Part shown: piece after piece, positions 54,406-56,955 of the stretch
Position numbering within the stretch: position 1 is the first letter of the stretch
Layout of the letters: every line of letters begins with the position of its first letter
Assembly (NCBI GenBank): GCA_028705565.1
Contig: JAQWDH010000002.1
Coordinates: 40,262-104,261, forward strand
Length of the DNA: 64,000 nucleotides
Source of the DNA: Patescibacteria group bacterium
GTDB lineage: Bacteria > Patescibacteriota > Patescibacteriia > Magasanikbacterales > GWA2-37-8
Direction: 5' to 3'
Position numbers and translations under genes: made by a program
Notes under the pieces: generated by a model
Databases searched by the model: none
Told to the model about the DNA's origin: nothing
The model's input: the letters and a program-made list of their open reading frames with translations, nothing else

Positions 54406-54503
54406 ACGATAAGTTTTAAAAATTTAATTCATTTATAATTTTAAAATAAAAACAAAAAATTCCGCCCTTTGTTTCAAAGCCGGTTTTTCAGAAGACGATT
54501 TTA

Positions 54504-54545
54504 GTTAAAAAAAGCAAGGATAACATGATTTTTTTATTACCTTGC
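54504..54545 (-). terminator. Attenuator-like hairpin (gcaaggtaat...attaccttgc) plus U7 run in the rpoB 5' leader
   Basis: Stem-loop followed by seven T on the transcribed strand, about 100 nt upstream of the rpoB ATG. Confidence 0.4.
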
Positions 54546-54647
54546 ATACAGCGTGATGCTTTCGTGTGAAAGCCAGCCGTACATCTTTGGCTTAAATAAG
54601 CCAAATTAAAAGCTTTTGTTTACTCTCAAAAATTCAAAAGCACAATA

Positions 54648-54676
54648 ATTATAGCAAACTACGGCGATTTTGTCAA
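54648..54676 (-). promoter_or_regulatory. consensus sigma70 promoter TTGACA-17bp-TATAAT for rpoBC
   Basis: Exact consensus hexamers on the minus strand, about 240 nt upstream of rpoB. Confidence 0.6.
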
Positions 54677-54849
54677 GAGGCGTTTATGCACAGGTTGTTG
54701 GCGCTACCGAACCATAGGATTACCTGCCTGCATACCTACGGTATGTAAACCGGTAGGCAAGCTTCGTTTCCACCCAGGGCGGATCGCAATGACAAACAAC
54801 TGTCATTGTGAACGCGGGCGGCAGGCAGGGGATTTAAAATTTTAAAAAG

Positions 54850-54898
54850 TTATCCACAACTTCGTTCCTTGACTATACGCGTGGATAAATTAAAATTA
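54850..54898. promoter_or_regulatory. Two DnaA-box-like 9-mers in inverted orientation (TTATCCACA at 54850-54858; TTATCCACG on the opposite strand at 54890-54898)
   Basis: Matches the TTATNCACA consensus. An AT-rich tract follows. Confidence 0.3.
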
Positions 54899-55150
54899 TA
54901 TATATACGACAAAGTTTTCCTTCGTCAAGCTGCGATAGAGTCGATGTGTTCAAGGGAACAGATTAATGAAACTACTCTATTTTTTGGACATTTATTTGTT
55001 CAAGGAGGCGTTTACAAAACTAATTTGTTCCATTATTTAACACTTGCGCCTCTTTTCGCAGCTTGAGGGAGGAAAACGTAAAATTATAACCCCTTGCTTC
55101 AAAAAAACGGGGGCTGTATCACGGCTACAACTACAAAATTTATAACAAAC

Positions 55151-55171
55151 AACGCCAAAAAATTTGGCGTT
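55151..55171. terminator. Hairpin aacgccaaa-aaa-tttggcgtt immediately 3' of tRNA-Pro
   Basis: Perfect 9-bp inverted repeat. Confidence 0.5.
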
Positions 55172-55182
55172 GTTTGTATTTG

Positions 55183-55256
55183 TCGGGGCGACACGACTTG
55201 AACGTGCGGCCTCCTGCTCCCAAAGCAGGCGCTCTAGCCAACTGAGCTACGCCCCG
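55183..55256 (-). tRNA. tRNA-Pro (anticodon UGG)
   Basis: Manual fold: acceptor cggggcg/cgccccg, anticodon loop ttTGGga with G37, T-loop ttcaagt, 74 nt, no encoded CCA. Confidence 0.85.
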
Positions 55257-55921
55257 AAATTTTTTGAAATACCGCTAATCCATCCTTTAATTTTATTCAG
55301 TAAAATCACATCGTTTATTCTAATTCTTAAAGTTCCAAAAGGCAAATTATTTTTTCTTTTTAATTTGCTTGACTTGCTTAATTGAAAAGACGGGGAAAGG
55401 AATTGTTTTTTTTGTAATTTTAGTATTTTTGACCAATAATGCAAAGCGTTTTTGAAAGATATGTTTTTATGAATCTGTATTTGAATTTTAATTTTTTCTT
55501 TCGGTATAAAACAAATTTCAGTAAAAAAACGCATCATTATTTTGTTTATAAATGGATCGGAATTTGAAAATATAACATTCCAATTTCCTCTTTTATATCC
55601 CTCCGCCCAATATAAAGAATTTCCAATAAAAAATAAATCTTTTTTTGTTATTTTTTGTATTTGTTTTTCTGATTTTTTTTGTATGGAGACCCATCTTTTA
55701 CGGGCTACCACAGATCTATTTTTGTTATAAGCTGTTATATTTTGAGCCCACTGAATCTTAGCCTTTTTAATATTTTGTTGTTTTATAATTTCAAATTTTT
55801 TTATGTTTTTAAACCAATAACTTAATGTCCCTTTTGGTATATTAAGTTTTTGTGAAATTTCATTATAAGAATATCCATTTTTGCGTAGCTTTGTAGCCAA
55901 ATTTTTTATTTTTTTTTCCAT
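55247..55921 (-). CDS. hypothetical HTH-domain protein (N-terminal resolvase-type HTH; possible homing-endonuclease-like fold, unverified)
   Basis: N-terminal YSYNEISQKLNIPKGTLSYWFKN. Lies between tRNA-Pro and the intron-containing tRNA-Phe; the 3' end overlaps tRNA-Pro by about 10 nt. Confidence 0.4.
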   Translation of the reverse strand: MEKKIKNLATKLRKNGYSYNEISQKLNIPKGTLSYWFKNIKKFEIIKQQNIKKAKIQWAQNITAYNKNRSVVARKRWVSIQKKSEKQIQKITKKDLFFIGNSLYWAEGYKRGNWNVIFSNSDPFINKIMMRFFTEICFIPKEKIKIQIQIHKNISFKNALHYWSKILKLQKKQFLSPSFQLSKSSKLKRKNNLPFGTLRIRINDVILLNKIKGWISGISKNFGA

Positions 55922-56006
55922 AAATTAAAACCCGTGATAATTATAACAATTTTATTATATCACGGGTTTTAATTTCATGCAACTTTCAAAACAAAAGTCA
56001 GCTTTG

Positions 56007-56320
56007 TGCCGAGGGCGAGGATTGAACTCGCGACGCAAGGATTTTCCTTATATTTTCTTTGGTTTTCCAAAGGATCGGACTATATCTTCACCCCAATAAT
56101 ATCGGGGGCAGGGCGCTATTTGCGAGATTATTGTTGGCACTCACTCGCTAGTCTCTACGCCTTCCGAAGAACTTTTATGCCTCTTCGGCTTGGTTCGGAG
56201 TTGCCTTGTCCATTTTAATTAAGGATTTAGGTTTCTCCGAGTTCACCCTGTTTTTAATTCTGAATTACTTCAGAATGGACCGAAAACCAGTCCTTCGCTC
56301 TACCACTGAGCTACCTCGGC
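56007..56320 (-). tRNA. tRNA-Phe (anticodon GAA) interrupted by a 242-nt group I intron in the anticodon loop (exons 56289-56320 and 56007-56046)
   Basis: Joined exons give a canonical 73-nt tRNA: GCCGAGG-UA-GCUC-AGUGGUA-GAGC-G-AAGGA-cuGAAaa-UCCUU-GCGUC-GCGAG-UUCAAUC-CUCGC-CCUCGGC-A. Confidence 0.8.
56047..56288 (-). ncRNA. group I self-splicing intron (candidate) inserted after U33 of tRNA-Phe
   Basis: P1 pairs exon GGACU with intron GGUCC, giving a U-G pair at the 5' splice site. P2 hairpin is auucugaa/uucagaau. Conserved R/S-like elements GACUA and AAGAUAUAGUCC form P7. Terminal hairpin is cuuugg-aaaa-ccaaag. The 3'-terminal G sits before exon 2. Confidence 0.7.
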
Positions 56321-56328
56321 TTTATTAG

Positions 56329-56401
56329 TGGACCGACGGGGAATCGAACCCCGGACCTCCGCCTTGCAAAGGCGTTGCTCTACCAGCTGAGCTATCGGCC
56401 C
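56329..56401 (-). tRNA. tRNA-Ala (anticodon UGC)
   Basis: Manual fold of 73 nt: anticodon loop uuUGCaa, G3-U70 wobble and A73 (Ala identity elements), T-loop ttcgatt. Confidence 0.8.
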
Positions 56402-56505
56402 GCATTTCGTTTCCCAAATGTCTAAAAACAAAAATAGCATACCAAAAATTCACAAAAAAGTCAACTGGTGATATAATACAATAAATTTATTAACTTAAAA
56501 TTTTT

Positions 56506-56910
56506 ATGCTTGACTTAATTTATTTTGCCCAAATCGTCTATGCGTCTTTCCTCGGCGCGATTTTGGGGTGGCAAAGAGCGAGGTGGGGCAAATCAGCCGG
56601 CTCGCGCACTTACGCGCTTGTTACCGCAGGTTCCGCGCTTTTTACTTTGCTTTCAATCAACGCTTTCGGTTTAGGAAGCGATGTTAGCCGCGTGGCTTCG
56701 CAAATAGTCGTCGGCATCGGCTTTTTAGGCGCCGGCACGATACTCCATAAAGAAAATCGCGTGGAAGGTCTTACCACCGCCGCCGGCCTCTGGATAGCCG
56801 CCGCAATCGGCATGGCGGTCGGAACCGGATATTACACTCTCGCCGCCGCCACCACCGCCCTTATGCTCATAATCCTGTTTTTAGACAGAAGCAAAACAGA
56901 AGAAAAATGA
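56506..56910 (+). CDS. mgtC: MgtC/SapB family membrane protein
   Basis: MgtC N-terminal domain pattern (GWQRA..GKSAG.RT..LV..GSALFT) with 4 TM helices. Confidence 0.75.
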   Translation: MLDLIYFAQIVYASFLGAILGWQRARWGKSAGSRTYALVTAGSALFTLLSINAFGLGSDVSRVASQIVVGIGFLGAGTILHKENRVEGLTTAAGLWIAAAIGMAVGTGYYTLAAATTALMLIILFLDRSKTEEK

Positions 56911-56955
56911 CACACCGCGGAACTACGCCATCAGTGTGTCATTGGTCATTTGGAT

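What the first reader, a model, noticed from the sequence alone, without database searches (positions are those of the whole stretch)
56007..56320. tRNA-Phe(GAA) split by a 242-nt group I intron in the anticodon loop
The two exons (56289-56320 and 56007-56046, minus strand) join into a textbook tRNA-Phe with anticodon loop cuGAAaa. The intervening 242 nt carry group I hallmarks. P1 pairs exon GGACU with intron GGUCC, placing a U-G wobble exactly at the 5' splice site. A clean P2 hairpin is present. The conserved R/S-type elements ...gagaGACUAg... and gAAGAUAUAGUCCg form P7. There is a cuuugg-aaaa-ccaaag terminal hairpin, and a G sits as the last intron nucleotide. Bacterial tRNA group I introns are documented for Leu(UAA), fMet, Ile(CAU) and Arg(CCU); I know of none in tRNA-Phe or in CPR-like lineages. 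Insertion after U33 rather than within the anticodon is also atypical. Because a G follows the intron, the junction could in principle be placed one nucleotide later; the P1 U-G pairing favours U33|G34.
Basis: partly seen in the sequence, partly recalled or inferred. Interest (0 to 1): 0.9.

Follow-up and report, generated by a model that had tools for sequence, protein, structure and literature searches.

The report
Group I intron splitting tRNA-Phe gene
A Patescibacteria (CPR) tRNA-Phe gene really is interrupted by a 242-nt self-splicing-type group I intron, but this kind of intron was published in 2026 and turns out to be common in that phylum; the less expected part is a homing-endonuclease-like gene that usually sits right next to it.

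Summary
On the minus strand, exon 1 (56320-56289) and exon 2 (56046-56007) join into a 72-nt cloverleaf tRNA-Phe(GAA). The 242 nt between them score 58.8 bits against Rfam RF00028 (gathering score 50). They show P1 with a U·G wobble at the 5' splice site, a 5-bp P10, P2-P9, a P3/P7 pseudoknot and a terminal G.

I collected 126 distinct homologous tRNA-Phe introns, all inserted at U33|G34 and mostly from Patescibacteria. On 45 of them the structure is 93% paired, and 55 of 86 pairs carry compensatory changes. A contig from the same metagenome carries the exact intron-less allele, which is exon 1 plus exon 2.

The novelty claim fails. Nakagawa et al. 2026 (PMC13011429) already list a homologous Phe(GAA) 33/34 intron in a Doudnabacteria genome, and 33/34 is the classical tRNA-fMet insertion site.

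The parts
56289..56320 (-). tRNA-Phe exon 1 (acceptor 5' strand, D arm, anticodon-stem 5' strand, C32, U33)
   Evidence: Identical to L098 695-726, the intron-less allele.
56047..56288 (-). Group I intron, 242 nt, no ORF
   Evidence: RF00028 58.8 bits, E=1.7e-14. ARAGORN i(33,242). Covariation.
56007..56046 (-). tRNA-Phe exon 2 (G34 A35 A36 through discriminator A73; no encoded CCA)
   Evidence: Identical to L098 727-766.
56277..56286 (-). Internal guide sequence 5'-UUUUC-GGUCC-3'. GGUCC pairs with exon-1 GGACU (P1, with U·G at the splice site). UUUUC pairs with exon-2 GAAAA (P10).
   Evidence: The guide sequence covaries with the exon type in 126 homologues. Pairs 29-43, 30-42 and 36-278 show compensatory change.
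56257..56276 (-). P2 hairpin, 8 bp with a GUAA (GNRA) loop
   Evidence: All 8 pairs show compensatory changes (helix 5).
56244..56250 (-). P3 5' strand (CAGGGUG), pairing with 56109-56115
   Evidence: 100% of cells paired, 3 pairs with compensatory change (helix 6).
56109..56115 (-). P3 3' strand (CGCCCUG)
56195..56240 (-). P4 (56235-56240 with 56195-56200) enclosing J4/5, P5/P5a (56204-56231) and J5/4. The junction adenines are invariant.
   Evidence: helices 7-9
56160..56193 (-). P6 (CC/GG) and P6a (8 bp)
   Evidence: All 8 P6a pairs show compensatory changes, 96% paired (helix 11).
56149..56153 (-). P7 5' strand GACUA (pseudoknot partner of 56078-56082; expected site of guanosine binding)
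   Evidence: Invariant in all homologues, but the search pattern required it, so it gives no covariation information.
56078..56082 (-). P7 3' strand UAGUC, within the conserved GAAGAUAUAGUCC (J8/7-P7)
56122..56148 (-). Extra hairpin between P7 and P3' (P7.1-type): GCGAG-17 nt-CUCGC
   Evidence: All 5 pairs show compensatory change (helix 13). A similarly placed stem with a UGAG-initiated loop is in a tRNA-Ile2 intron that the paper labels IA1.
56091..56107 (-). P8 hairpin (7 bp)
   Evidence: Length is variable in homologues and only 70% of cells pair in the MAFFT alignment (helix 14).
56057..56072 (-). P9 hairpin CUUUGG-AAAA-CCAAAG
   Evidence: 98% paired with 5 pairs showing compensatory change where present. 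Absent from about a third of homologues, including the published Doudnabacteria intron.
56047..56047 (-). Terminal G, the last intron nucleotide
   Evidence: G in 126 of 126 homologues.
56328..56401 (-). tRNA-Ala(UGC), 7 nt upstream, probably co-transcribed with tRNA-Phe
56436..56464 (-). Promoter-like site TTGACT-17-TATGCT (TG-extended) upstream of tRNA-Ala
   Evidence: consensus match only
55247..55921 (-). ORF224: N-terminal HTH, a long helix and a LAGLIDADG-like domain (motif LYWAEGYK). It starts 86 nt downstream of tRNA-Phe, and its 3' end overlaps tRNA-Pro by 10 nt. Candidate free-standing homing endonuclease linked to the intron.
   Evidence: fold; adjacency statistics. Absent from the intron-less haplotype L098.
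55922..55975 (-). Long hairpin directly upstream of the ORF224 start codon, containing an extended -10-like TGATATAAT (55954-55962)
   Evidence: Comparable hairpins appear in most of the 22 spacers printed. A TGnTAnnnT-like motif is present in 48 of 79 distinct spacers.
55182..55256 (-). tRNA-Pro(UGG), the next gene of the tRNA array

Best explanation
Window 56007-56320 (minus strand) is a tRNA-Phe(GAA) gene interrupted between U33 and G34 by a 242-nt ORF-less group I intron. It belongs to a large family of homologous tRNA-Phe introns in Patescibacteria.

Inferred mechanism, the standard group I pathway:
1. In the tRNA-Ala/tRNA-Phe precursor, the 5' strand of the anticodon stem plus C32-U33 (GGACU) pairs with the intron guide sequence GGUCC instead of its tRNA partner. 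This forms P1 with the U33·G wobble at the cleavage site.
2. A free guanosine bound in the P7 pocket attacks after U33.
3. The adjoining guide bases UUUUC hold exon 2 (GAAAA, P10).
4. The terminal G (56047) replaces the free guanosine in P7, and the exon-1 3'-OH attacks after it.
5. The exons are ligated to give anticodon loop CUGAAAA, so the anticodon stem can form.

Shown here: the sequence, the fold supported by covariation, the exon-guide complementarity, the exact junction (a natural intron-less allele) and the family's distribution. Inferred: catalytic activity and splicing in vivo.

The intron is very probably kept, and possibly spread, together with the neighbouring LAGLIDADG-like gene ORF224. 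That link is statistical only.
For: - Rfam RF00028 scores 58.8 bits against a gathering score of 50, full length.
- ARAGORN in intron mode calls Phe(gaa) i(33,242).
- The spliced product is a canonical cloverleaf.
- All helices P1-P9 and P10 can be drawn without a mismatch.
- On 45 diverse homologues (all pairs below 80% identity), 93.4% of cells pair, against 77.3% in shuffles and 34-50% with slid partners. 55 of 86 pairs carry compensatory changes, and 0 of 500 shuffles reach any measure.
- In 126 distinct homologues a contiguous 10-nt guide sequence pairs with 5 nt of each exon and changes with the exon type. Examples: GGACU|GAAAA with UUUUC-GGUCC, GCCCU|GAAGA with UCUUU-GGGGC, GGAUU|GAAAA with AUUUC-GAUCC. 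The U before the splice site and the terminal G are present in 126 of 126.
- L098, from the same JGI sample 3300029288, has flanks 98.7-99.6% identical to the window. It carries an uninterrupted tRNA-Phe identical to exon 1 plus exon 2.
- A homologous Phe 33/34 intron is published. [quoted passage not shown]
Against: - There is no RNA-level evidence for this locus: no transcriptome and no splicing assay.
- P7 and much of the core are invariant partly because my search pattern required AGAGACTAG and GATATAGTC, so they carry no covariation information.
- P5, P5a and P8 pair in only 70-75% of alignment cells. This is probably MAFFT misalignment of variable-length hairpins.
- The P9 loop here is AAAA rather than GNRA.
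- A 64-kb window cannot show that this is the genome's only tRNA-Phe gene.
- Dependence on a protein cofactor cannot be excluded.
Confidence: 0.9

Rival explanations
1. The intron is real but needs a protein. ORF224, a LAGLIDADG-fold protein encoded 86 nt downstream, would act as a maturase that helps the intron fold, as LAGLIDADG maturases do for some organellar group I introns (my own background knowledge). It would not be, or not only be, a DNA endonuclease.
For: - ORF224 homologues lie within 300 nt of the intron-bearing tRNA-Phe in 45 of 68 informative species-representative loci.
- They are adjacent in 59 of 80 loci anchored on the ORF.
- Both the ORF and the intron are absent from L098.
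Against: - 23 of 68 informative intron loci have no ORF224 homologue nearby and no substitute gene. The intron family therefore persists without it.
- The RNA has a complete compact core of a kind that the same paper shows self-splices in vitro for related Patescibacteria tRNA introns.
- 7 ORF homologues sit next to intron-less tRNA-Phe genes, and distant members sit next to intron-less tRNA-Tyr, tRNA-Thr and tRNA-Val genes. A dedicated maturase would have nothing to do there.
Confidence: 0.12
2. The interrupted gene is a dead relic. The intron no longer splices, and tRNA-Phe is supplied from another locus.
For: Splicing was not measured, and only 64 kb of the genome is visible.
Against: - There are no broken pairs in any core helix.
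- The guide sequence matches both exons perfectly (5 + 5 bp), and it tracks exon changes across the family. That requires ongoing selection for splicing.
- Patescibacteria complete genomes typically carry a single tRNA-Phe gene, including the one with the published Phe intron (Table S2 of PMC13011429).
- In the sister haplotype L098 the same tRNA array holds the tRNA-Phe gene.
Confidence: 0.04
3. The splice junction is shifted by one base (G34|A35). The exon-1 end would be G and the intron would end at 56046. This gives the same mature tRNA.
For: The first intron base and the first exon-2 base are both G, so the spliced product cannot tell the two placements apart.
Against: - The shifted placement puts G, not U, before the 5' splice site and destroys the U·G wobble.
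- U·G is present in 80 of 80 and 45 of 45 aligned sequences.
- About a quarter of the aligned homologues have an intron that starts with A (AU at that P1 pair: 20 of 80, 11 of 45; e.g. L001 CCCT|AAAC...TTCG|GAAG), which leaves only U33|G34.
- Exactly one placement with U before the splice site and a terminal G exists in 126 of 126.
Confidence: 0.02
4. The structure is an assembly artefact or chimera joining a tRNA gene to an unrelated intron fragment.
For: The window comes from a metagenome-assembled genome.
Against: - The same sequence across both junctions appears in independent assemblies: JGI Ga0265297_10124315, ENA ERZ27247363 and Logan SRR22315502, at 99.8-100% identity.
- 125 other distinct loci have the same architecture.
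Confidence: 0.01

Closest known systems
Patescibacteria tRNA-Phe(GAA) 33/34 group I intron (Doudnabacteria GCA_016699995.1; Nakagawa et al. 2026, mSystems, PMC13011429, Tables 1 and S3)
   Same: Same tRNA and the same insertion site (U33|G34), with U before the splice site and a terminal G. The cores are alignable: gggtgaactcgg, ccgagccaagcc, ggaaggYgtagagactag, the P7.1 hairpin with its ccaacaataatc loop, atagcgccc and gatatagtcc. No ORF inside the intron.
   Different: 211 nt against 242 nt. The published copy lacks the P9 hairpin and has a shorter P5. It has a different anticodon stem (ACGCC) and a matching guide sequence. The paper did not report how common this intron is, and it did not examine genes next to the tRNA.
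Classical bacterial tRNA group I introns of subgroup IC3: cyanobacterial and plastid tRNA-Leu(UAA) 34/35, cyanobacterial tRNA-fMet 33/34, Azoarcus tRNA-Ile(CAU) and Agrobacterium tRNA-Arg(CCU) 36/37
   Same: Small ORF-less ribozymes (about 200-300 nt) in the anticodon loop. P1 is built from the anticodon-stem 5' strand. The P4-P6 and J6/7-P7 sequences are very similar (compare the IC3 tRNA-Leu rows of Table S5). tRNA-fMet uses the same 33/34 position.
   Different: The host tRNA differs. This family carries an extra hairpin between P7 and P3', which the IC3 introns in Table S5 lack and the IA1-labelled entry has. Nakagawa et al. assign no Patescibacteria tRNA intron to subgroup IC. I did not run subgroup covariance models.
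Patescibacteria tRNA-Asn and tRNA-Asp 35/36 introns, self-splicing shown in vitro (Nakagawa et al. 2026)
   Same: Same phylum, same kind of element, similar size, missed by standard annotation.
   Different: Insertion at 35/36. Some tRNA-Asn copies carry an internal HNH endonuclease gene, whereas the Phe family has none inside.
[quoted passage not shown] Examples are the cyanophage S-PM2 psbA intron with F-CphI and the phage Aeh1 nrd intron with a mobE-type gene (Zeng et al. 2009; Bonocora and Shub 2009; reviewed in Hausner et al. 2014, PMC3984707)
   Same: An ORF-less intron in a conserved gene, with a separate endonuclease-like gene immediately beside that gene. Alleles lacking both exist in the same population.
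   Different: Those systems are in phage protein-coding genes, their nucleases belong to other families, and cleavage of the intron-less allele at the insertion site has been demonstrated. Here the host is a bacterial chromosomal tRNA gene, the protein is LAGLIDADG-like only at fold level, and no nuclease activity or target is known.

Membership tests
Group I intron (Rfam RF00028) | Covariance-model score at or above the curated gathering score | tested here: met
   58.8 bits against 50, E=1.7e-14, model positions 1-253 of 253. Found only when a short stretch is scanned; the 64-kb scans lose it in the filters.
Group I intron (Rfam RF00028) | P1 helix between the 5' exon end and an internal guide sequence, with U·G wobble at the 5' splice site | tested here: met
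   GGACU|G pairs with CGGUCC. U·G in 80 of 80 and 45 of 45 sequences. Compensatory changes at 4 of 6 P1 pairs.
Group I intron (Rfam RF00028) | Terminal G as the last intron base, and P10 pairing of the guide sequence with the 3' exon | tested here: met
   G at 56047. UUUUC pairs with GAAAA, 5 bp. Terminal G in 126 of 126. Pair 36-278 alternates U-A (25) and C-G (19).
Group I intron (Rfam RF00028) | Conserved core: P3-P8 and P4-P6 domains with the P3/P7 pseudoknot | tested here: met
   All helices are drawn. P3, P4 and P6/P6a pair in 96-100% of cells, with compensatory changes. P7 is invariant, so it is uninformative.
Group I intron (Rfam RF00028) | Guanosine-dependent self-splicing activity | not testable with these tools
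   Needs an in vitro transcript with GTP and Mg2+. Related Patescibacteria tRNA introns self-splice (abstract of PMC13011429).
tRNA-Phe | The spliced product folds as a cloverleaf with anticodon GAA and matches an uninterrupted tRNA-Phe gene | tested here: met
   It is 100% identical to the intron-less tRNA-Phe of L098, which ARAGORN calls without intron mode.
Published Patescibacteria Phe(GAA) 33/34 intron class | Same insertion site and homologous intron sequence | tested here: met
   Alignment A3. My pattern, derived from both sequences, retrieves 79 species-representative genomes with intron-split tRNA-Phe.
Group I subgroup IA versus IC3 | Match to subgroup-specific covariance models, and peripheral elements such as P7.1/P7.2 | tested here: inconclusive
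   One P7.1-type hairpin is present and supported by covariation. A similarly placed hairpin is in an entry labelled IA1 and is missing from the IC3 entries of Table S5. Subgroup models were not available to me.
LAGLIDADG homing endonuclease (for ORF224) | Match to the Pfam LAGLIDADG sequence profiles | tested here: not met
   No LAGLIDADG family hit at E<=10 for ORF224, at E<=1 among the 25 families listed for the 45 aligned members, or at E<=0.01 for 10 long relatives. No PDB sequence hit outside the HTH.
LAGLIDADG homing endonuclease (for ORF224) | LAGLIDADG fold, with a conserved acidic residue at the end of the motif helix | tested here: inconclusive
LAGLIDADG homing endonuclease (for ORF224) | Site-specific DNA cleavage | not testable with these tools
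   Needs purified protein and target DNA.
Collaborative (trans) homing unit | An ORF-less intron with a free-standing endonuclease gene adjacent to the interrupted gene | tested here: met
   45 of 68 informative intron-anchored loci. 59 of 80 ORF-anchored loci carry the intron-split tRNA-Phe. 'Met' refers to adjacency only; the endonuclease nature of the ORF is not established.
Collaborative (trans) homing unit | [quoted passage not shown] | not testable with these tools
   A candidate recipient allele exists (L098 695-767).

The most novel reading that the evidence does not exclude
The tRNA-Phe intron would be half of a two-part mobile element. ORF224 would be a free-standing homing endonuclease with an HTH and a LAGLIDADG-like domain, from a very large family with no Pfam model for that domain (about 1,500 clusters at 50% identity with E<=1e-30). 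It would cut intron-less tRNA-Phe genes in or near the anticodon stem-loop. The intron would split that target and so protect the carrier. Break repair would copy the intron and the ORF together into naive alleles such as L098.

If true, this would be collaborative homing in bacterial chromosomal tRNA genes. It would overturn the published inference that Patescibacteria tRNA introns have 'limited autonomous mobility' because they lack internal endonuclease genes.
Probability: 0.35. Interest if true: 0.65.

Novelty: new member of a known kind. Interest (0 to 1): 0.35.

Why it matters
As submitted, the finding is a correct call of an element class that is already published. Its practical value is for annotation:
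- Default ARAGORN and whole-contig Rfam scans both miss this tRNA-Phe gene. Genomes like this one would be scored as lacking tRNA-Phe.
- The class is far more common than the single published case suggests. I found 126 distinct sequences, with at least 79 GTDB species representatives hit by one strict pattern.

If the link to the neighbouring LAGLIDADG-like gene is functional, it would change how persistence and spread of introns in reduced CPR genomes are explained. It would also offer a natural donor and recipient pair of alleles (the window and L098) for testing collaborative homing outside phages.

Tried and rejected
- Whole-window Rfam scans, at gathering and at E-value thresholds, did not report the intron. 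Only a 471-nt scan did. This is a filter effect, not evidence against the intron.
- A regex scan of the window for a second AGACUA...AUAGUC core found only this one. My first regex was wrong.
- MAFFT Q-INS-i was not installed. I used L-INS-i and the tool's MAFFT, so variable hairpins (P5a, P8) are imperfectly aligned.
- For ORF224, Pfam, NCBIfam, PHROGs and PDB sequence searches gave only weak HTH hits.
- Foldseek against PDB and BFVD gave nothing significant. The afdb50 library was unavailable.
- I looked for an alternative endonuclease gene next to the 21 examined intron loci without an ORF224 homologue nearby. Their neighbours showed no similarity to ORF224; the six I read looked like ordinary genes (one resembles the window's MgtC), and many are followed directly by the next tRNA.
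- Williams 2020 (bioRxiv 10.1101/2020.01.27.920355) reports 21 tRNA/site classes, but its table is an image. I could not confirm that Phe is among them.
- Table S5 of Nakagawa et al. is cut before the Patescibacteria rows, so I could not read their subgroup label for the Phe intron.
- I considered the G34|A35 junction, a pseudogene and an assembly chimera, and rejected all three (see rival explanations).
Full report
**Observation.** Reading the minus strand, 56320-56289 (32 nt) and 56046-56007 (40 nt) join into GCCGAGGUAGCUCAGUGGUAGAGCGAAGGACU|GAAAAUCCUUGCGUCGCGAGUUCAAUCCUCGCCCUCGGCA. This folds as a canonical cloverleaf with anticodon loop CUGAAAA. The intervening 242 nt (56288-56047) begin GGUUUUCGGUCC and end AUAUAAG. 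ARAGORN as normally run sees only tRNA-Trp, tRNA-Pro and tRNA-Ala. With introns allowed it calls tRNA-Phe c[56006,56320] (gaa) i(33,242). Rfam at gathering threshold on the whole window, and even at E-value threshold on the whole window, reports no intron. A scan restricted to 55950-56420 gives RF00028 Intron_gpI at 58.8 bits (gathering score 50), E=1.7e-14, covering model positions 1-253.

**Anatomy.** I drew the structure by hand from the Rfam alignment and the MFE fold and verified every helix by script. Pre-tRNA index i corresponds to window coordinate 56321-i.
- P1: 28-33 with 39-44 (GGACUG/CGGUCC, with U32·G40 at the splice site).
- P10: 35-39 with 275-279 (UUUUC/GAAAA).
- P2: 45-52 with 57-64, GUAA loop.
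- P3: 71-77 with 206-212.
- P4: 81-86 with 121-126.
- P5 and P5a: 90-92 with 115-117, and 96-98 with 110-112.
- P6 and P6a: 128-129 with 160-161, and 133-140 with 150-157.
- P7: 168-172 with 239-243 (GACUA/UAGUC), forming a pseudoknot with P3.
- An extra hairpin between P7 and P3': 173-177 with 195-199.
- P8: 214-220 with 224-230.
- P9: 249-254 with 259-264.
- The terminal G is at index 274.

The guide sequence 5'-UUUUC-GGUCC-3' is thus a contiguous complement of both exon ends. No core pair is broken.

**Relatives and covariation.** I derived one strict pattern from this intron and the published one: AGAGACTAG N40-70 GATATAGTC N9-39 GGAARA. It hit 97 loci among GTDB species-representative genomes. 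ARAGORN called an intron-split tRNA-Phe(GAA) in 79 of them. By record title, most of the named ones are Patescibacteria lineages: Doudna-, Falkow-, Magasanik-, Uhr-, Morani-, Yanofsky-, Kerfeld-, Saccharibacteria, Gracilibacteria and Paceibacterota. Many other titles say only 'bacterium', and some read 'uncultured Gammaproteobacteria ... binchicken', Bdellovibrionales or Nitrospirota. I did not verify those submitter labels. With 58 more copies from metagenomes there are 128 distinct pre-tRNA sequences, 81 of them below 80% pairwise identity.

In 126 of the 128 there is exactly one junction placement with U before the 5' splice site and a terminal G, always U33|G34. The other two had no such placement within the shifts tested. 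Intron length runs from 198 to 320 nt, median 237. The 10-nt guide sequence tracks the exon type:

| Exon ends (exon 1 \| exon 2) | Guide sequence | Copies |
|---|---|---|
| GGACU\|GAAAA | UUUUC-GGUCC | 37 |
| GCCCU\|GAAGA | UCUUU-GGGGC | 23 |
| CGCCU\|GAAGA | UCUUC-GGGCC | 5 |
| GGAUU\|GAAAA | AUUUC-GAUCC | 2 |

On a 45-sequence alignment (A2), the structure with pseudoknot, P10 and three tRNA stems pairs in 93.4% of cells, against 77.3% in shuffles and 34-50% with slid partners. 55 of 86 pairs carry compensatory changes, and 0 of 500 shuffles reach any measure. P2, P6a, the P7.1-type hairpin and P9 are the most informative. P7 is invariant, partly by construction of the search pattern.

**A natural intron-less allele.** Looking up the MgtC protein next door returned L098 (JGI sample 3300029288, Ga0265297_10009786, 12 kb). 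Its flanks are 98.7-99.6% identical to the window. L098 695-767 is an uninterrupted tRNA-Phe identical to exon 1 plus exon 2. This fixes the junction at the DNA level. It also shows that intron-plus and intron-minus alleles coexist in one community: window-type contigs from the same sample and from ENA and Logan assemblies are 99.8-100% identical to the window. The two haplotypes differ in more than the intron. In L098 the Ala-Phe-Pro tRNA array is inverted relative to its flanks and ORF224 is absent. A 93-aa GIY-YIG ORF, bracketed by a duplicated 60-nt tRNA-Pro 3' end, and a Gp49/HTH pair lie before MgtC. A simple recent insertion or deletion therefore cannot be inferred.

**Literature.** Nakagawa, Amikura, Omae and Suzuki (mSystems 2026, PMC13011429) surveyed 95 complete Patescibacteria genomes. 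Their Table 1 lists 'GCA_016699995.1 Phe (GAA) 33/34', detected by their pipeline, by ARAGORN and by tFind. Table S3 gives the sequence, which aligns with this intron, including the extra hairpin. They state that 33/34 (fMet), 34/35 (Leu) and 36/37 (Arg) are the common classical sites, and that introns occur at nearly every anticodon-loop position. [quoted passage not shown] Williams 2020 had already expanded the four classical classes to 21. The claims 'none in tRNA-Phe or CPR' and 'U33 insertion is atypical' therefore do not hold. This locus is a new, unannotated member of a published class.

On subgroup, the hairpin between P7 and P3' is absent from the IC3 tRNA-Leu rows of their Table S5. 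A similarly placed hairpin is present in a tRNA-Ile2 intron they label IA1. I could not run subgroup models.

The adjacency is striking:
- Among the intron-anchored loci, 45 of 68 with enough flank have a homologue within 300 nt. 33 are directly downstream on the same strand, 7 upstream on the same strand and 5 divergent.
- Among 80 metagenome loci chosen only for encoding an ORF224 homologue (36-61% identity), 58 have the intron-split tRNA-Phe beside them, plus one truncated copy. 7 have an intron-less tRNA-Phe in the same place, and most of the rest lack the flank needed to tell.
- For comparison, 1 of 95 complete Patescibacteria genomes carries a Phe intron in the published survey.

More distant family members abut intron-less tRNA-Tyr/tRNA-Thr or tRNA-Val genes. 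The family is very large, with 1,478 clusters at 50% identity at E<=1e-30. Nakagawa et al. counted only endonuclease genes inside introns and concluded 'limited autonomous mobility'. They do not mention adjacent genes, and a literature search found no description of this link. The arrangement resembles collaborative or trans homing as reviewed by Hausner et al. 2014. No nuclease activity or target is known, and joint vertical inheritance or a maturase role remain open.

**Verdict.** The mechanism is the ordinary group I pathway: sequence, fold, junction and selection are shown, while catalysis is inferred. The finding as stated is a new member of a known kind. The intron-ORF224 linkage is the only part a specialist might not expect, and it is a lead rather than a result.

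Noticed in passing
window 55247-55921 (-): ORF224, an HTH plus LAGLIDADG-like protein, lies directly downstream of the intron-bearing tRNA-Phe. Homologues are adjacent to intron-split tRNA-Phe in 45 of 68 and 59 of 80 sampled loci. The family is very large and its C-terminal domain has no Pfam model.
   Followed up: yes
L098 1-2444 (JGI 3300029288 Ga0265297_10009786), corresponding to window 54605-56943: A sister haplotype in the same sample has an intron-less tRNA-Phe, no ORF224, and the Ala-Phe-Pro tRNA array inverted relative to its flanks. It also has a 93-aa GIY-YIG ORF (882-1163) followed by a duplicated 60-nt tRNA-Pro 3' end (1158-1217), then a Gp49/HTH toxin-antitoxin-like pair before MgtC. 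The tRNA array looks like a hotspot for selfish elements.
   Followed up: partly
window 55922-55975 (-): A long hairpin immediately upstream of the ORF224 start codon contains an extended -10-like TGATATAAT (55954-55962) in its 5' arm. Comparable hairpins appear in most of the 22 spacers printed, and a TGnTAnnnT-like motif occurs in 48 of 79 distinct tRNA-Phe/ORF spacers. It may act as a terminator for the tRNA operon, as translational or promoter control of the ORF, or both.
   Followed up: partly
window 1-64000: Method caveat. Rfam cmscan on the full 64-kb window misses a 58.8-bit RF00028 match at both thresholds and finds it only in a 471-nt scan. Other filter-sensitive RNAs in the window could be missed in the same way.
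   Followed up: yes
L119, L125, L132-L134, L145, L152: Seven ORF224 homologues sit 70-82 nt downstream of intron-less tRNA-Phe genes. Their anticodon stems are A/U-rich (e.g. CUUCU-CUGAAAA-AGAAG), unlike every intron-bearing allele. Several also have unusual T arms (e.g. GCCGG-CGCACGU-CCGGC).
   Followed up: no
L184-L189: Distant ORF224 relatives (27-30% identity) are wedged against intron-less tRNA genes (Tyr/Thr, Val). Their stop codon abuts or overlaps the 5' end of the next tRNA, as ORF224 overlaps tRNA-Pro here.
   Followed up: partly
window 54406-55181: There is a gap of about 776 nt without a convincing ORF between rpoB and tRNA-Pro. It contains a long imperfect hairpin (arms 54914-54935 and 55056-55077, which gave spurious miRNA-precursor hits on both strands) and a perfect 15-bp hairpin at 55145-55177. 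Contig L101 lacks 87 nt (54732-54818) of this region.
   Followed up: no
P0135, P0139, P0150, P0153, P0160 (representative library): Some relatives of ORF224 are 440-580 aa long and match the profile in two or three separate stretches (fused or duplicated copies). Only HTH domains are recognised by Pfam.
   Followed up: no
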